Assembly: GCA_041739995.1 (NCBI GenBank)
Contig: JBGSMV010000061.1
Location: forward strand, 1-64,000
DNA: 64,000 nucleotides
Direction of reading: 5' to 3'
DNA from: Bdellovibrionota bacterium
GTDB taxonomy: Bacteria > Bdellovibrionota_C > UBA2361 > JBGSMV01
Positions 18,001 to 24,000 of the stretch are shown piece after piece. The stretch's first letter is position 1. Each line of letters begins with the position of its first letter. The position numbers are program-made.

Positions 18001-21000
18001 TCAACGATTAGTCGGTCGTGCAAAGGTCTGATCTTTGACTTGTTACTTGCCATCGTCCGGATTCTCCAATGTTTAGGACTACAGTTGTTTCGATTTTCCT
18101 TAACGTCGCCTGCTTGTGGCTGACATGAATCGGTTATCAAGGACAAACGAACACATCGCGGGACGTTTGGTGGGCGGCTATTCGCTACCCTCCAAAGCCC
18201 CATTCTCGTGTCTCGGTTTTGCGCCTGACACCGCTTCTTCGTATCCACAAGATCCCAGTGCGGAAAATAGCTGAGAAGCACTTTTAAGTTTTCTGCGCTT
18301 CTCACTATAGATGTCTTCCTTCAGAGGACATCTGATGGGAGCCATTATCGCTGCCTCGCTCTCCCGCCGGGGACCGACATTTGCGGCCCCTATGGTATGG
18401 ACACCCGTGGCCTTAATTTCAAGGGCGTGGAGCTTATTTTTTGAGAGTTCTCGGCCCCCTCGTAATCTATTGAAAATGCTTCATAAACGTGAAAGCTTGA
18501 GCTCACATGGCAGCTAATTTCCCCAATTCGACCAGACCAATGCATGCGTCGACTTCGTCAAAAGGCGCTTTATTCGGCGATTTGACGCTTGCGGTTGCCG
18601 CGTTCTCATCTCCAACAGAGCGCCAGCGGATGGAATGTGCCCTCATTGAGTTGACTCGTCTCGGCGTTTCAACTCGTACGGTGCTCGATCCTTCAGCGGC
18701 GTACGGAAGAGACGAATTTCTCTTTGCCAGTGATAGTCCTGAAAATCGCGCCAAGGCGCTGCATGACCTTGCTACTGATCCGTCCGTAGGAGTGATTATG
18801 GCTGCGCGCGGAGGTAGCGGTGCCATGGAGATGTTGCCGCTGCTTGATTGGAAGTTGTTAGCGAAACACCCAAAGCCACTAATTGGCTTTTCTGATAGCA
18901 CCGCCTTGCTGGTGACTCTGCTTAACCGAGCAGGATGGCCAACCATGCATGGTCCTTCATTAGAAGGGGCGTTTGCTCAAGCCGAGAATTCTGTTGCTCA
19001 CAGAACCAGCGGCGAGAAGGCAATCTCGTACTTACGTGGTTCATCCGAAGCACTCGAAGGGGTGCGGGTGAAACGTTTATGTGGCGCGGGAGATGCAGTC
19101 GGTCCCATTATTGGGGGGAATCTCTCCACGCTGACTTCTTTAGTGGGAGCTCCGTGGCAACCGAACGTTCGCGGGGGAATTTTGTTTCTGGAAGAAGTGG
19201 GAGAGCGTCCGTACCGAATTCAGCGCATGTTGATGCAGTTAAAACATGCTGGAGTATTGGATGGACTTACGGGAGTGCTACTGGGAAATTTCTCGCAGTG
19301 CGAGCATCCTACGGGCGCTGGTCCAAGTGCAGAGACGGTTTTGAAGGCCGAACTTTCTGGCTTAAACGTGCCTGTCTTTGGGTATGTTGAATCAGGGCAC
19401 TGCCCAACTAACCTCGTCGTGCCGTTTGGTCGCACGGCGAAAATTTCAGAATCTGCGATTGTCTTTCAGTAGCATCTAGTGTTCTGAAGTTGAGAGTTCG
19501 AGGAATTATTCTCGCCGCTCTGTGTGTGAATATATTTAACGAATTACACAATGAGTGCAGCGAGAATATCGAGAAATATACTCAAATGAATTTCTAACTC
19601 ACGGGACACTAGCTCAAAGCCGAATCGAGAAAGCTTTCAAGCAACTGCATCGGATACAGTGGCGGCGTTTCTGCCAGGCCTTGGTGATAGAGAACGGTGG
19701 AAGGTGTAAGTCCCGGGACGGTATTGGCCTCAATGACCATAATATCTCCGCTGTCGATATTCATAAACGCGTCGATTCTGGCGAAGCCAGAGATTCCAAG
19801 CTTCATCGCAACTTTTGCAATGCTCAAACGCACACGCTCCCGCACTGACTCACTCACGAGGCTCTCAGGCGGCGGAGTAATGTTGATACCAGTACCGCCC
19901 TGAAACTTTTCCTCAAGCGACAAGACTGAAGAGCTTGCCACTGTAATACTTGGATTCATGGCCTTCATTGCGCCTTGAGTGCCTCTGACGCCGACGGTTA
20001 TTTCGACCCAACGCGGACCGTCTTTAGGCCAGGAGAGTTGTGCTCCCTGCGCTTGAATCCGAAGTGTCTCAATAAATGGTTCAAATATGAGTTGCTCGGG
20101 GCACGAAGGGGGCATCTCGATAATGCCCGATTGATCGCTAAGGGTGTGCGCTGGAATTCTCTCCGCTCCAAGTTGTATGAATTTAAGATAGTGTTCAAGG
20201 TCAGCGGCGCTGCATAGCTTTGCGACGCCCGCTGAACATCCATCTCCCAGGGGTTTCACGATTAGATTGACTTGTCCCAGGTAACTTTGAAACTGAGGGA
20301 AGATCTCCTCAAGATTTAGTTCCTGCAACTCAGAAGGGCTCTTAAGAACTTTGAGGGCACTAAAGATGCCCTCAGCTTCAAGATGACTGAGTGTTACTCC
20401 TGTTTGAAACTTATCCATGCAAAGCGCGGATGCGACCGAATTCGAGCCGGTATATGCGGTGCCATGGGAGTCCAGTAGCTTCTGTAACTCTCCGTTCTCT
20501 CCGATGCCGCCATGCAGGGCGATAAATACGACCTTTGATTCCATGGCAAGTGTGTTGAGCGAGAGCAGGCGAGGCGTGAAGTGGCGTTCAGAAAAGAAAC
20601 TCTCTGGCGCAGCGAGCTCTTGATATATTCTTTCTCGAATTGGGCCGACGCGCGCCTCACGCGCAGCGGTGTCTTTGCACAGCTCTGCGATTTCTTCCAC
20701 CGTATGGTAGAGCGCGAGGCAGTAGGGAAGTTCCCAAACCTGCTGTTGGGCCTGCTGTTGGGCCTGCTGTTGGGCATCAAGCAGAAACGGAGTAGGACGA
20801 TAGCGAGCAGAGCGCTTAAGCTTTAACCATACATTAGTGCCGCTCATTACGGACACCTGACGCTCAGCCGAGTTGCCGCCGAATATCACACTAATGGGGC
20901 AAGGTGCGACGGAGCGGTGTTGTTCGGGTTTTGGAGTGACAGTTTCAGGGAGAGCTACACCTTGTCTCTGGCATGAATGGAAAAGAACATAGCGCAATAC

Positions 21001-24000
21001 ATCGCGGTGGCTCATGCCGAGCTGAGAAGCTTGAATGAACAAGAAGCTGTTCTGCTCCATGCCGCTGATGGGGTTGAAGTCAGGAAAATAAATGCGCCCG
21101 TCGTTAAGAACCCAGCCATCAAATCGGGCAAAATCACGCATGCCGAGAAGTTTGAAAAGCTTAGCGGCGAGAGAGCGAATCTCCTGCAGGACAGCTTCGC
21201 CAAAGCGAGCAGGGCAATGATATGATACCTGACGAGTGGCGAGGTATTTCCGTCGGTAGTCAAAGATTTGATCGTCGCCATAGTCCATCGATACTTCGAT
21301 TGGGACGAGAGCCACCGGTTCTTCGCTCTTATTCTCTAAGATTACTACAGTGAACTCGGTTCCCTGACAAAAGGGTTCTAACACCGCACGATGATCTATT
21401 TTCTGCTCGAAAATCTTCCTTGCTGCCGCAGCGGCCTCGGCAGGAGTTCTTACTGAGGTGACTGCAATGCTCGATCCGCCTTGAGAAGGCTTTACTATGC
21501 CTCTGGTAAGCGTATGCAATTTGAAGAAGTTCTGAATCGCTTCGCTGTCATGAATGTTATCCTCACGCAATTCGAGCTGTGGAATACTGTGAAAACCATG
21601 ACTCTGAATGAGCTTAGAAACACCAATCTTATTAAATGCAACTTCGCAGGCCGCAGAGGGCGAGCCCACGAACGGGCATTTGCAATCTTCTAATAACTTT
21701 TGCAGCTCGCCATCTTCGCCGAACTGTCCGTGAATGGCGGGGAAGGCGATGTCGACCTGGCCCAGTAACTCTCGAAGTGCCTCAGGCGAGAGCTGTCGAG
21801 CGCTCTCTTGCAGTTTGAAGTCAAAATCCGACGGGGTGTTGGAATAGAGCTGGGCTCTGGAGATCTGGTAGGGGACCTTATCTTGGTTGAAATAAATCGG
21901 AGTGATGTCGATGTCGTCGTCACTTAGGTGATCCGCGATAGAGCGTGCCGAGTTAAGCGATATTCCACGCTCAAGCGAGGGCCCTCCACACAGTACGGCC
22001 ACATTAAGGCTGGAGCGTGCGGAGGTGAGACGCTTAGCGGAGGAGGGTTCAGAAGCTCCCGGGGAGTGTTTTTCCTCTTTTCCTTTCGATCGTGCTCCGG
22101 CGGCCATGAGAATAATTCCTTAGCAGTTAAGGGCTTCCGAGCACTCTAGTATGTGCCAAGTGTGGCGAACATACCCTGTGGAATTTTTTGGATAAGAGCT
22201 CTCAGTGGAGGGCGGGTTTAGGAACAGGGCCTCCTTGGTTGTCCTTTGCTTGCTTCTAGTGAGTAGATCTCGGCATTTGGGAATGCTTGGAATTAACTGC
22301 GTAGATACCCTATACTCTTGAATCACACCCATTGATGAGGCGTAAAACAGTATGCAGCTTGCCGAGCGACTAAGTAACTTAGCCCAAAAACGTTCCAAAG
22401 CTCAGGGCCGAGCGCTGGAGAGGAGCGCGGTGAATCAATCAGCGAATCAAGCAGTGGATAAATCGGCTCAGCCAGTACTCCAGGTCGCTCCTCGTTTAGT
22501 CGCAGAGCGTCCCCCGCGAGAGATCCCGGGGACTCCTCAATTCGATCCGGTAGTAGAGGTAATAGAGTCGGCCATTAAGGATGGAGCTATTCCGGGTGCG
22601 GTGGTGCTCGTGGCACAGAGTGGGCGGGTAGAGTTCTTCCGCGCATTTGGAAACCGTAGCCCTCGAGTCGCAAAAGCCCCAGAACCTGGTGCCATGCAGG
22701 TTGAGACGGTTTTCGACGTAGCCTCACTTACAAGTGCTGCGGTCACCACCACACTGGTGATGAAGTTGGTTGAGGCCGGGATGTTTTCGCCAGATGAGCG
22801 AGTTTGTCGCTACGAACAGTCCTTCGGGATTCTTGGAAAATCACCGATCACCATCGCTCAACTGCTTAGCCACACTTCCGGACTACCGGTCTGGTTGCCG
22901 TTCTTTGAAGAGCTACTCCGTGAGAACGCCGGATCGCGACGGGGCGTGATAACGAGCCGCGGGGCCCGAGACTATATATACAACGCCATTAATAGATTGC
23001 AGGTCAAACCAAACACTTCATCCGGGCGTCCAGCGTTCAGTGATGTGGGAGTGATTTTGCTTGGGCACTTGATTGAGATGCTCACCGGGGCAGGGCTCGA
23101 AAAGGCCGCCACTCGACTTATTTTCCACCCGCTTTTGATGAAGAGCACCAGCTTTGTTGATCTTTCCATGATTAAGCGGCGCGGAATTCATCCGGTCACT
23201 GACCTGATTGCGCCCACAGAAGATTGCCCATGGAGAGAGCGCTCGTTGTGCGGCGAGGTGCATGACGACAACGCCTGGGTGATGGGCGGCATTGCCGGTC
23301 ACAGCGGCTTGTTCACCACCGCCTGGGATTTGCATCGCCTTTCTTTTGAGTTGCTGGCTTGTTTTCATGGCAAGAGTGATTTTGTTGCCCGGGAACTAGT
23401 GACCCATTTCTGGAGAGGCCCCGGCGAATACTCTGAAGGTTGGCGCTATGGCTGGGATAGCCCTAGTGCGGAGAATCAACTGGGTGGTCTAGGATTCAGT
23501 CCTCAAACGGTGGGGCAGAACTCGTTTACTGGTTGTTCTTTATGGATCGATCCGCAGCGCGAACTTGAGATAATCGTGATGAGCAATCGAATCTGCCCCT
23601 CGCGCAATAACAAGAAGTTTCTTCAAATTCGCCCAGAGCTTCATCGCCGCATCTTGCGAGCAGTCGATGGTGGTACTGAAGGCGGTGCAGAAGGCAGTTC
23701 GGGGCGCTAGGATTTTTCAGGATTCAGACTCATATGTGGGATCGTTTGGCCGCCGTTGAGCGCCGCTTCGAAGAGATTTCAGCGCTCGTCTCATCTCCTG
23801 AAATCATCTCGAATCGGGAACTGTTTCAAAAGTATACTCGCGAGCACAAAGAGCTCTCCGAAATTGTGGCAACATTCCGTGCTTATCGTAAGGCGTCGGA
23901 GGAGTTAGCCGGCAGTCGTGAGATGATCTCTCGCGAGAAAGACCCTGAGATGATCGCGGTAGCAAAAGAAGAAAGTCTTTTGCTTGAAAAGGAGGTCGAA

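What a model noticed while it worked through the whole genome (the two positions that open the first line are those of the whole stretch)
19609..22107. The only D-Ala-D-Ala ligase is a tandem Ddl-Ddl fusion of 832 aa
g01645 encodes two D-alanine--D-alanine ligase units in one chain (Dala_Dala_lig_N + _C at residues 35-372 and 405-804). The halves are old copies, 24% identical, and the second has a ~150-residue insert between its N and C domains. No single-unit Ddl gene is found here, so an enzyme that normally works as a homodimer is a covalent pseudo-dimer. The same 800-850-aa form occurs in 6 of 24 sampled genomes of the order (43-52% identity) while others, the congener included, have an ordinary ~370-aa Ddl, and two have both.
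Evidence so far: Pfam and Swiss-Prot rows; other Dala_Dala_lig_C-only genes lack the Ddl N domain; six-frame search of 24 relatives: open frames of 797-849 aa in G089, G013, G031, G002, G032, G024; single units of 369-394 aa in G020, G013, G011, G034, G077, G038, G032; own genome matched only itself at E<=1e-20; halves 23.8% identical over 307 columns, E 7e-13.
(Added by a program. Inside this text positions count along the whole contig: contig position 1 is position 1 of the stretch shown here. "Call 12" and the like, gene names such as g00115 and contig names such as C1 are that model's own, and its searches are not shown. The text may have been shortened before it was handed on; [...] marks where a part breaks off. 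The agent that wrote the report below was given it as the finding of a first reader that could run no searches.)

Follow-up and report, generated by a model that had tools for sequence, protein, structure and literature searches.

The report
Plant-type double D-alanine ligase gene
This gene really does encode two D-alanine-D-alanine ligase units in one protein, but it is an ordinary member of a large, conserved enzyme family found in many bacteria and in plants, and here it sits exactly where a sister species keeps its normal single-unit gene.

Summary
Window 19609-22107 (-) is an intact 832-aa ORF with two complete Ddl units, 24% identical to each other. It is the only gene in the 91%-complete assembly with a Ddl N-terminal domain.

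It is not peculiar to this order. The top 120 homologues are all 765-848 aa and 50-64% identical over about 96% of the length. Named carriers span at least 10 phyla. A Coffea protein aligns end to end at 46% identity. This is the bacterial counterpart of the plant "DDL fusion of two putative DDL enzymes" (PMC9954125). This scan has reported the same family in many other genomes.

- **Active sites:** both units keep invariant ATP-grasp and Ddl residues. The second always carries Cys for DdlB Ser150 and Phe for Tyr216.
- **New here:** the congener has a canonical 377-aa ddl in the same LdcA/PF00144 slot, on the opposite strand. Three other genera of the family have that slot empty.

Verdict: a new member of a known kind. 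The role of the second unit is untested.

The parts
19609..22107 (-). Tandem Ddl-Ddl gene, 832 aa plus stop (19609-19611)
   Evidence: ORF list and translation; Pfam N and C domains twice each; TIGR01205 316.8 bits against a cut-off of 245.65
22021..22107 (-). N-terminal tail, residues 1-29, predicted disordered; gapped in more than half of 121 family members
   Evidence: pLDDT below 50 for residues 1-29; gap line of the family alignment
20932..22020 (-). N-type unit, residues 30-392: complete Ddl fold. Carries E46, H126, E131, K160, K206, S212, S213, K287, Y288, R328, D330, D343 (in place of DdlB E270) and N345
   Evidence: VIA-align Z 28.2, rmsd 2.0, 322 aligned to T. thermophilus Ddl 6u1f; Z 26.7, rmsd 1.8 to E. 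coli DdlB 2dln. HMMER alignment to 2dln/1iov. Invariant columns in 42 diverse sequences
20902..20955 (-). Linker between the units, about residues 385-402, low confidence
   Evidence: Mean pLDDT 54 for the block 391-400; no secondary structure over 382-402
19612..20931 (-). C-type unit, residues 393-832: complete Ddl fold with extra loops. Carries E415, H532, E537, K566, K618, C624 (DdlB S150), S625, K734, F735 (DdlB Y216), R777, D779, E793 and N795
   Evidence: AF2 of the unit alone: pLDDT 92.0, pTM 0.90. VIA-align Z 36.4, rmsd 2.3, 318 of 325 aligned to 6u1f. Profile against PDB, E 4e-42 to P. aeruginosa DdlA. Invariant columns. Motif columns
20014..20172 (-). Largest C-type-specific elaboration, residues 646-698 (41 extra residues in three pieces). 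It lies between the K618 strand/helix and the E702 strand and is conserved across the family
   Evidence: Columns occupied in C units but gapped in more than 80% of N units and single Ddls; family consensus 'IP.g.l..Q.giieMP...FE.Fi.TD'
20739..20775 (.). Perfect 12-bp x 3.1 tandem repeat encoding (QQQA)3, residues 445-455, in a loop of the second unit; an insertion specific to this protein
   Evidence: Tandem Repeats Finder, 100% matches, score 74; gapped in more than half of 121 family members
18507..19472 (+). LD-carboxypeptidase (LdcA, Peptidase_S66), convergent with the tandem gene; left edge of the slot
   Evidence: Pfam PF02016 and PF17676; congener orthologue 49-51% identical and the best hit in the order
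19507..19568 (.). Imperfect inverted repeat between the two convergent stop codons (possible two-way terminator)
   Evidence: the repeat finder I1, 22-nt arms, 77% complementary; function not tested
22352..23710 (+). Beta-lactamase / DD-peptidase family gene (PF00144), divergent from the tandem gene; right edge of the slot
   Evidence: Pfam PF00144, 136 bits; congener orthologue 69% identical

Best explanation
The gene encodes the cell's D-alanine-D-alanine ligase in its 'plant-type' two-unit form. An N-type Ddl unit and a C-type Ddl unit are joined by a short flexible linker. They descend from one ancient duplication and have been conserved as a pair ever since. Each unit keeps a full ATP-grasp active site, so each most likely binds ATP/Mg and two D-Ala and makes D-Ala-D-Ala for MurF (inferred). 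The two units most likely pack against each other as a fixed hetero-pair in one chain (inferred from a confident whole-chain model; geometry not examined). In this genus the gene occupies the same LdcA/PF00144 intergenic slot that holds a canonical single ddl in the sister species. The tandem and single forms are therefore interchangeable suppliers of the same function.
For: - **Shown: the gene.** Intact ORF with two full Ddl units.
- **Shown: folds.** The first unit matches Ddl structures at Z 28.2 and the second at Z 36.4.
- **Shown: conserved residues.** All ATP/Mg/substrate residues mapped from DdlB are invariant in both units across 42 sequences of 30-52% identity, including a plant (alignments).
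- **Shown: one duplication.** All 32 N units plus all 32 C units form one clade (SH-aLRT 97), apart from the order's canonical single Ddls (16-row clade, 97). They are also apart from three of this genome's four Ddl-like paralogues (outgroup, 99).
- **Shown: plant counterpart.** End-to-end alignment to Coffea XP_027176337.1, 46% identity, E 1.7e-187.
[quoted passage not shown] The moss knock-out can no longer dimerise D-Ala (same passages). DDL is listed as EC 6.3.2.4 from Physcomitrella and Arabidopsis (PMC7432710, passages).
- **Shown: demand for the product.** MurF scores 326 bits against a cut-off of 288.6, and there are six transpeptidase-domain genes.
- **Shown: no other Ddl.** No other Dala_Dala_lig_N domain over the cut-off.
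- **Shown: near-exclusive distribution.** Of 56 order genomes with a match, 14 have the tandem only, 39 single-unit matches only, 1 unfused pairs, and 2 both.
- **Shown: same slot.** The congener G025 reads GroEL-GroES | LdcA - canonical ddl (472 bits against 457, NF002525) - PF00144 - PrfA. The window reads the same with the tandem gene in place of ddl.
- **Shown: context elsewhere.** ftsZ lies directly upstream of the tandem gene in 2 of 11 order loci, and alanine racemase in 1 of 11.
- **Shown: model confidence.** Whole-chain AF2 model pLDDT 90.6, pTM 0.91.
Against: - No activity data exist for any bacterial member.
- Neither unit alone reaches NCBIfam's Ddl cut-off (193.9 and 128.3 against 245.65).
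- The C-type unit deviates at two substrate-site positions (Cys for Ser150, Phe for Tyr216). The N-type unit has Asp for the Mg ligand Glu270.
- No alanine racemase was found in this assembly, so the D-Ala source is unidentified.
- The assembly is 91% complete.
- In 8 of 11 order loci the flanking genes examined are unrelated to the cell wall.
Confidence: 0.8

Rival explanations
1. Division of labour: only one unit makes D-Ala-D-Ala. The C-type unit, with Cys for Ser150, Phe for Tyr216 and a conserved insert of about 40 residues, makes a different product (a depsipeptide such as D-Ala-D-lactate, or another D-Ala-D-X) or acts as a ligand-binding regulatory partner.
For: - The C-type deviations are fixed across the family. 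C624 is at least 90% conserved, and F735 is invariant in 42 and 43 sequences.
- The C-unit profile scores the Y216F DdlB mutant slightly above wild type (147.4 against 144.6 bits).
- Recalled, not from a call: Y216F DdlB and the Phe-bearing Leuconostoc enzyme make D-Ala-D-lactate.
- The C-type-specific loops at 646-698 are conserved.
Against: - All ATP/Mg residues of the C unit are invariant too.
- NCBIfam D-Ala-D-Lac and D-Ala-D-Ser models score far below their cut-offs (157 against 550 and 200 against 520 for the whole protein).
- Structure does not discriminate: VanA scores 36.1 and LmDdl2 35.8, tied with Ddl at 36.4.
- A stand-alone 427-aa C-type gene exists in an Amoebophilaceae contig with no N-type gene beside it on the side that was held. 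This suggests a C-type unit can serve alone.
- The moss phenotype is tied to D-Ala dimerisation (PMC9954125, passages).
Confidence: 0.13
2. The tandem protein is an accessory enzyme. The housekeeping single ddl exists but lies in the unassembled 9% of the genome.
For: Completeness is 91.3%. Two order genomes, G015 and G006, carry both forms.
Against: - The congener's only ddl match lies in the slot that the tandem occupies here.
- No remnant of a single ddl lies in window 18000-24000.
- 14 of 16 tandem carriers in the order sample show no single-unit match.
Confidence: 0.05
3. Artefact: two adjacent ddl genes falsely joined by an assembly or sequencing error.
For: An unfused adjacent pair does exist in one order genome (G043).
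Against: The same uninterrupted two-unit frame is found in 13 order genomes, in the 120 best database hits and in a plant. The linker aligns across the family.
Confidence: 0.02

Closest known systems
Plant and green-algal DDL (Physcomitrium patens PpDDL, Arabidopsis At-DDL; represented here by Coffea eugenioides XP_027176337.1, P0154)
   Same: Same two-unit order (N-type then C-type). Collinear over residues 32-830 at 46% identity. Same C-type hallmarks, DGCS and LSLEEKFQGGTG(I)N(L/I)TPPP. Described in print as a fusion of two putative DDL enzymes (PMC9954125).
   Different: The plant protein has an N-terminal extension of about 78 residues and is nuclear-encoded. The bacterial protein has only a 29-residue disordered tail. 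In my trees the plant-like clade sits in an unresolved basal polytomy, not beside this protein.
Canonical single-unit Ddl (E. coli DdlB 2dln; DdlA-type enzymes; TIGR01205, NF002525)
   Same: Each unit has the same three-domain ATP-grasp fold (Z 26.7 and 34.5 to 2dln) and the same catalytic residue set.
   Different: Two non-identical units in one chain. Each alone is below the family cut-off. Differences are E270->D in unit 1, and S150->C and Y216->F plus 77 extra residues in unit 2. The canonical enzyme is a homodimer (recalled).
Chlamydiaceae MurC-Ddl fusion (NF011171)
   Same: A Ddl unit fused to another peptidoglycan-precursor ligase. Its Ddl activity is reported to depend on the fusion (McCoy and Maurelli 2005, as quoted in PMC4803751).
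   Different: The partner there is MurC, not a second Ddl. The NF011171 score here is 142.6 against a cut-off of 1015.
D-Ala-D-lactate ligases (Leuconostoc LmDdl2 1ehi; VanA 1e4e)
   Same: Same fold (Z 35.8 and 36.1 for the C unit). Phe at the DdlB Tyr216 position as in LmDdl2 (recalled).
   Different: NCBIfam D_ala_D_lac scores 157 against a cut-off of 550. No van-type neighbours in the window.

Membership tests
[quoted passage not shown] | Ddl-specific N-terminal domain followed by the ATP-grasp C-terminal domain | tested here: met
   Both domains are present twice, each over the Pfam cut-off
[quoted passage not shown] | Score over the curated NCBIfam cut-off | tested here: inconclusive
   Whole protein 316.8 against 245.65, but this sums two units. 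Unit 1 alone scores 193.9 and unit 2 alone 128.3
[quoted passage not shown] | Catalytic and substrate residues of E. coli DdlB: E15, H63, E68, K97, K144, S150, S151, K215, Y216, R255, D257, E270, N272. The list is recalled; the numbering was checked on the 2dln/1iov and 1iow alignments | tested here: met
   Unit 1: all present except E270->D343. Unit 2: all present except S150->C624 and Y216->F735. All are invariant or at least 90% conserved in 42 sequences
[quoted passage not shown] | Ddl three-domain fold | tested here: met
   Unit 1: Z 28.2, rmsd 2.0, 322 aligned. Unit 2: Z 36.4, rmsd 2.3, 318 aligned, both to 6u1f; these are predicted models
[quoted passage not shown] | ATP-dependent synthesis of D-Ala-D-Ala | not testable with these tools
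   Needs an enzyme assay
Plant-type tandem DDL (two-unit Ddl) | Two Ddl units in one chain, collinear with a plant DDL over its whole length | tested here: met
   Query residues 32-830 align to 79-951 of Coffea XP_027176337.1 in one stretch, 46% identity, E 1.7e-187
Plant-type tandem DDL (two-unit Ddl) | N units and C units each descend from one duplication shared by bacterial and plant members | tested here: met
   N plus C units form one clade (97). The C side has 99 support and the N side 86. The plant N and C units fall inside the respective sides (quick LG+G4 tree)
Plant-type tandem DDL (two-unit Ddl) | C-type hallmark motifs (DGCS; EEKF-GG) in the second unit | tested here: met
   Present in the window, Coffea, Dependentiae-type and Holophagae members; invariant F735 and K734
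D-Ala-D-lactate / D-Ala-D-serine ligases (Van-type, NCBIfam NF000206, NF000207 and exceptions) | Score over the curated cut-off | tested here: not met
   157.4 against 550 (D_ala_D_lac) and 200.2 against 520 (D_ala_D_ser) for the whole protein
MurC-Ddl bifunctional fusion (NF011171) | A MurC unit N-terminal to Ddl; score over 1015 bits | tested here: not met
   142.6 bits, matching only the Ddl part, profile positions 451-789

The most novel reading that the evidence does not exclude
The two units are not redundant. The C-type unit carries fixed Cys-for-Ser150 and Phe-for-Tyr216 changes and a conserved loop elaboration of about 40 residues. It may have a different acceptor specificity or an allosteric role. 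That would make the enzyme an obligate hetero-pair, with properties such as product spectrum or D-cycloserine and glycopeptide sensitivity that a canonical homodimer lacks. On this reading, lineages such as this genus swap one form for the other at the same chromosomal slot because the two forms differ in performance, not merely by drift.
Probability: 0.15. Interest if true: 0.6.

Novelty: new member of a known kind. Interest (0 to 1): 0.3.

Why it matters
On its own this gene is routine: one more member of a large tandem-Ddl family. That family is known in print from plants and has been met repeatedly in this scan.

Two things give it some value:

- **A natural swap.** Sister species carry the canonical and the tandem ligase in the same intergenic slot. 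This is direct genomic evidence that the two forms do the same job, and it gives a convenient pair for comparing them.
- **An open biochemical question.** The family is widespread in uncultured bacteria and shared with chloroplast peptidoglycan synthesis, yet it has no biochemical study of its second, altered active site. I found no paper on a bacterial member in four full-text searches. Any bacterial member, this one included, would be an easy recombinant entry point. Ddl is also the target of D-cycloserine.

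Tried and rejected
- **Complex prediction (N unit 30-392 against C unit 393-832 of A1).** The job was accepted and polled seven times, and the seventh poll reported it lost on the remote machine. A further try met a full queue, and then the tool was declared unavailable. There is no result, so the intramolecular pairing stays an inference from pTM 0.91. Model coordinates are not exposed, so the interface could not be compared with the Ddl homodimer.\n- **Was LdcA swapped together with ddl?** Rejected. 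The congener's LdcA (51%) is still the best hit among 60 order genomes; the rest are 29-46%.\n- **Composition as a sign of recent import.** The gene has GC 0.518 and GC3 0.537, against 0.538 +/- 0.017 and 0.532 +/- 0.030 for 33 window ORFs. It is not atypical, so this is uninformative.\n- **Insertion scars.** There are no direct repeats flanking the gene, only a hairpin between the convergent stop codons. No remnant of a single ddl was found.\n- **Is this lineage the donor of plant DDL?** The C-unit tree pairs the window's C unit with the Coffea C unit (SH-aLRT 97). The N-unit tree does not, and neither do the full-length trees. With three more plant-like long sequences added, that clade (100) sits in an unresolved basal polytomy. 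I do not claim a donor.\n- **G043 adjacent pair as the 'pre-fusion state'.** By motifs it is N-type then C-type. With both genes in the tree their place is unresolved, and they are 39% identical to each other. It remains only a lead.\n- **PrfA as a yardstick for vertical descent.** Identity is 83% (genus), 71% (family) and 70% (order), which is too flat to be useful.\n- **Papers not held:** Hirano 2016 by DOI and PMC4981129, and Machida 2006, PMC1458953. Their content is known to me only through citing papers.

Full report
**1. The observation**

Window 19609-22107 on the minus strand is one uninterrupted 832-aa ORF with an ATG start. Pfam finds the Ddl N-terminal domain twice and the Ddl ATP-grasp C-terminal domain twice. 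Whole-genome hits give the second copies at residues 405-555 and 702-804. The two halves are 73/307 = 24% identical, E 1e-12.

Two details are not:

- **The "~150-residue insert".** It is just the stretch 556-701 that Pfam's local match skipped. That stretch contains the normal central ATP-grasp segment, with K618 and the DGCS motif. In an alignment of 32 N units, 32 C units and 31 single Ddls, residues specific to the second unit total 77. They are scattered at 393-397, 448-453, parts of 493-516, 578-580, 646-656, 660-671 and 681-698.
- **Family membership of each half.** The whole protein passes NCBIfam's Ddl model (316.8 bits against 245.65). Each half alone does not (193.9 and 128.3).

**2. 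What family it belongs to**

The form is not a peculiarity of this order.

- The word-indexed search returned 2502 hits at E <= 1e-3 among 7999 scored. The best 120 are all 765-848 aa, 50-64% identical over 93-98% of the query. Most carry no name; the named ones read 'hypothetical protein' or 'D-alanine--D-alanine ligase'.
- The exhaustive search of 50%-identity representatives found 375 at E <= 1e-30. The top 150 are mostly single-stretch, full-length matches of 33-53% identity.
- A scan of species-representative genomes found relatives in 559 of 600 pattern-matched stretches. The best 80 include many Patescibacteria lineages, Bdellovibrionota, Actinomycetota, Chlamydiota, Alpha- and Gammaproteobacteria, Clostridia, Planctomycetota, a verrucomicrobial MAG, and more distant Dependentiae forms at 28-30%.
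- One genome of the window's own order carries a protein identical to that of a record titled Bdellovibrionota bacterium (L030). This places the order in that phylum.
- Representative P0154 (956 aa) aligns in one stretch, query 32-830 to 79-951, at 46% identity and E 1.7e-187. It is Coffea eugenioides XP_027176337.1.

[quoted passage not shown] The moss knock-out is unable to dimerise D-Ala (PMC9954125, passages read). PMC7432710 (passages) lists it as EC 6.3.2.4. I could not read Hirano 2016 itself.

Four full-text searches found no paper on a bacterial tandem Ddl. After I had reached this reading, the scan's own notes showed the same family reported in many other genomes with the same conclusion.

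**3. Anatomy and active sites**

AlphaFold2 on a 42-sequence alignment gives pLDDT 90.6 and pTM 0.91. Only residues 1-29 fall below pLDDT 50, and the linker around 391-400 is also of low confidence (mean pLDDT 54).

| Unit | Residues | Best structural match | Other matches |
|---|---|---|---|
| 1 (N-type) | 32-384 | T. thermophilus Ddl 6u1f, Z 28.2, rmsd 2.0, 322 aligned | E. coli DdlB 2dln, Z 26.7, rmsd 1.8 |
| 2 (C-type), folded alone (pLDDT 92.0) | 393-832 | 6u1f, Z 36.4, rmsd 2.3, 318 of 325 aligned | VanA 36.1 and LmDdl2 35.8, effectively tied |

The list of DdlB residues is recalled. The numbering was checked on the 2dln/1iov and 1iow (Y216F) alignments.

- **Unit 1** keeps E46, H126, E131, K160, K206, S212, S213, K287, Y288, R328, D330 and N345. 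It has D343 where DdlB has E270.
- **Unit 2** keeps E415, H532, E537, K566, K618, S625, K734, R777, D779, E793 and N795. It has C624 for S150 and F735 for Y216.

All of these are invariant or at least 90% conserved in 42 sequences of 30-52% identity that include the plant protein, and in 43 C-type units. Both sites are therefore under selection, and the second is a fixed variant rather than a decayed copy.

**4. Origin of the two units**

In a unit tree (98 rows, quick LG+G4), all N and C units together form one clade (SH-aLRT 97). The C side has 99 support and the N side 86. They are separate from the order's canonical single Ddls (16-row clade, 97). They are also separate from three of this genome's four other Ddl-like ATP-grasp ORFs (outgroup, 99). 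The fourth was not in the tree. This points to one old duplication.

Two side observations bear on function:

- **Unfused pair.** Order genome G043 has, in two copies, an N-type-looking 368-aa gene (GSS, EKY) whose stop abuts a C-type-looking 351-aa gene (GCS, EEKF). Their position in the tree is unresolved, and they are 39% identical to each other.
- **Stand-alone C-type.** An Amoebophilaceae contig has a 427-aa C-type gene directly after ftsH, so a C-type unit may work without an N-type partner.

**5. Role in this genome**

- MurF is present (326 bits against 288.6), in a cluster with other Mur ligase-like matches and a transpeptidase-domain (PF00905) gene. There are six transpeptidase-domain genes in all. 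D-Ala-D-Ala is therefore needed.
- No other ORF has a Ddl N domain over the cut-off.
- The four Ddl-like paralogues score 94-156 bits against cut-offs of 243 or more.
- The tandem gene is flanked by an LD-carboxypeptidase and a PF00144 beta-lactamase/DD-peptidase family gene.
- No alanine racemase was found. TIGR00492 gave no hit, and the only Ala_racemase_N hit is in a 268-aa frame. The congener has one, so this may be an assembly gap.

**6. The local story, specific to this window**

| Genome | Arrangement |
|---|---|
| Congener G025 | GroEL(-) 91%, GroES(-) 91%, LdcA(+) 49%, canonical ddl (377 aa, +, start abutting the LdcA stop; 472 bits against 457 for NF002525), PF00144(+) 69%, PrfA(+) 83% |
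| Window (G000) | Same order of genes, with the tandem gene, inverted, between LdcA and PF00144 |
| G045, G006, G037 (three other genera of the family) | LdcA and PF00144 directly adjacent (84-155 bp apart), no ddl there |

- G006 and G045 carry their tandem genes elsewhere, and G006 and G037 carry their single ddl genes elsewhere.
- The window's LdcA is still closest to the congener's, so only ddl differs between the two species.
- No remnant of the single gene, no flanking repeats and no compositional oddity were found.

I read this as displacement of one ddl type by the other at a genus-specific slot. Independent insertion at the same spot is not excluded, and the direction of the swap is not shown.

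**7. Distribution and history in the order**

Among 60 sampled genomes:

- 13 have a full tandem.
- 3 have a tandem in pieces at contig ends.
- 1 has the unfused pairs.
- 39 have single-unit matches only.
- 4 have no match.
- G015 and G006 have both forms.

The order's 12 full-length tandem proteins are not one clade. The AU test rejects holding them together (delta lnL 213, p-AU 0.00013). The group was defined by taxonomy, but I ran the test after seeing the tree, and it used LG+G4 on the quick tree. These proteins lie as a grade along the backbone of the main clade, with Patescibacteria, Clostridia, Chlamydiota and others nested among them. The window's protein forms a clade (100) with four unnamed metagenome proteins of 56-65% identity. 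Horizontal transfer is clearly involved; its direction is not resolved.

Among 11 order loci examined 1.5 kb either side, ftsZ is immediately upstream in 2, alanine racemase in 1, and the rest are unrelated.

**8. Mechanism and rivals**

- **Best reading (0.8).** A plant-type two-unit D-Ala-D-Ala ligase serves as the cell's sole Ddl. Both sites are catalytic, and the units are held as a fixed hetero-pair.
  - Shown: architecture, folds, conserved residues, family membership, near-exclusive distribution, and the same-slot swap.
  - Inferred: the activity, that both sites turn over, and the internal pairing.
- **Rival 1 (0.13).** The C-type site has a different acceptor or a regulatory role.
- **Rival 2 (0.05).** A canonical ddl is hidden in the missing 9% of the genome.
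- **Rival 3 (0.02).** The fusion is an assembly artefact.

**9. Verdict**

This is a real feature and a new member of a known kind, the plant-type tandem DDL. It has been found repeatedly in this scan. Interest is modest. The same-slot exchange between congeners and the untested second active site are the points worth keeping.

Noticed in passing
window 20739-20775: A perfect 12-bp x 3.1 tandem repeat encodes (QQQA)3 in a surface loop of the second Ddl unit. It is absent from most family members, so it is probably a recent in-frame microsatellite expansion.
   Followed up: partly
G000 whole assembly: No alanine racemase was found. TIGR00492 gave no hit, and the only Ala_racemase_N match is in a 268-aa frame (not scanned further). 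The congener G025 and G043 have clear alr genes; G006 and G037 also show none. The D-Ala source is therefore unidentified or lies in an assembly gap. GlyA-type racemisation is known from Chlamydia (PMC3935232, passages).
   Followed up: partly
G000 C57 (L004 1225-2154), C20 (L006 1477-2496 and 1-894), C42 (L007 1087-2202): Four Ddl-like ATP-grasp ORFs lack the Ddl N domain. Two of them follow a 320-340-aa ORF with an HExxH motif, and these two ORFs resemble each other. Function is unknown. The three ATP-grasp ORFs placed in the tree form an outgroup to all true Ddl units.
   Followed up: partly
L106 (G043:C76:2800-5485), ORFs 1278-2384(-) and 223-1278(-); second copy on G043:C108: An unfused adjacent pair of an N-type-looking and a C-type-looking ddl, with abutting stop and start, occurs twice in one genome of the same order. 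Both score near the NCBIfam Ddl cut-offs (243-260 bits). Tree placement is unresolved.
   Followed up: partly
L098 3989-5272(+): A stand-alone 427-aa C-type Ddl unit (DGCS, EEKF, long helical insert) lies directly after ftsH in an Amoebophilaceae contig. The contig ends about 0.5 kb downstream.
   Followed up: no
window 17748-18305(-): The GroES ORF is listed as 185 aa from a GTG, but the Cpn10 domain and all relatives' alignments start near residues 83-91. The true start is probably internal.
   Followed up: no
The C-unit tree pairs this protein's C unit with the Coffea C unit (SH-aLRT 97), while the N-unit and full-length trees do not. This is unexplained: it could be long-branch or composition effects, or different histories of the two halves.
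   Followed up: partly
L018 (G031:C268), 4219-5376(-) and 1489-3927(-): In one order genome an alanine racemase gene lies directly upstream of the tandem ddl on the same strand, an alr-ddl arrangement. That tandem gene nests among Patescibacteria sequences in the tree.
   Followed up: no
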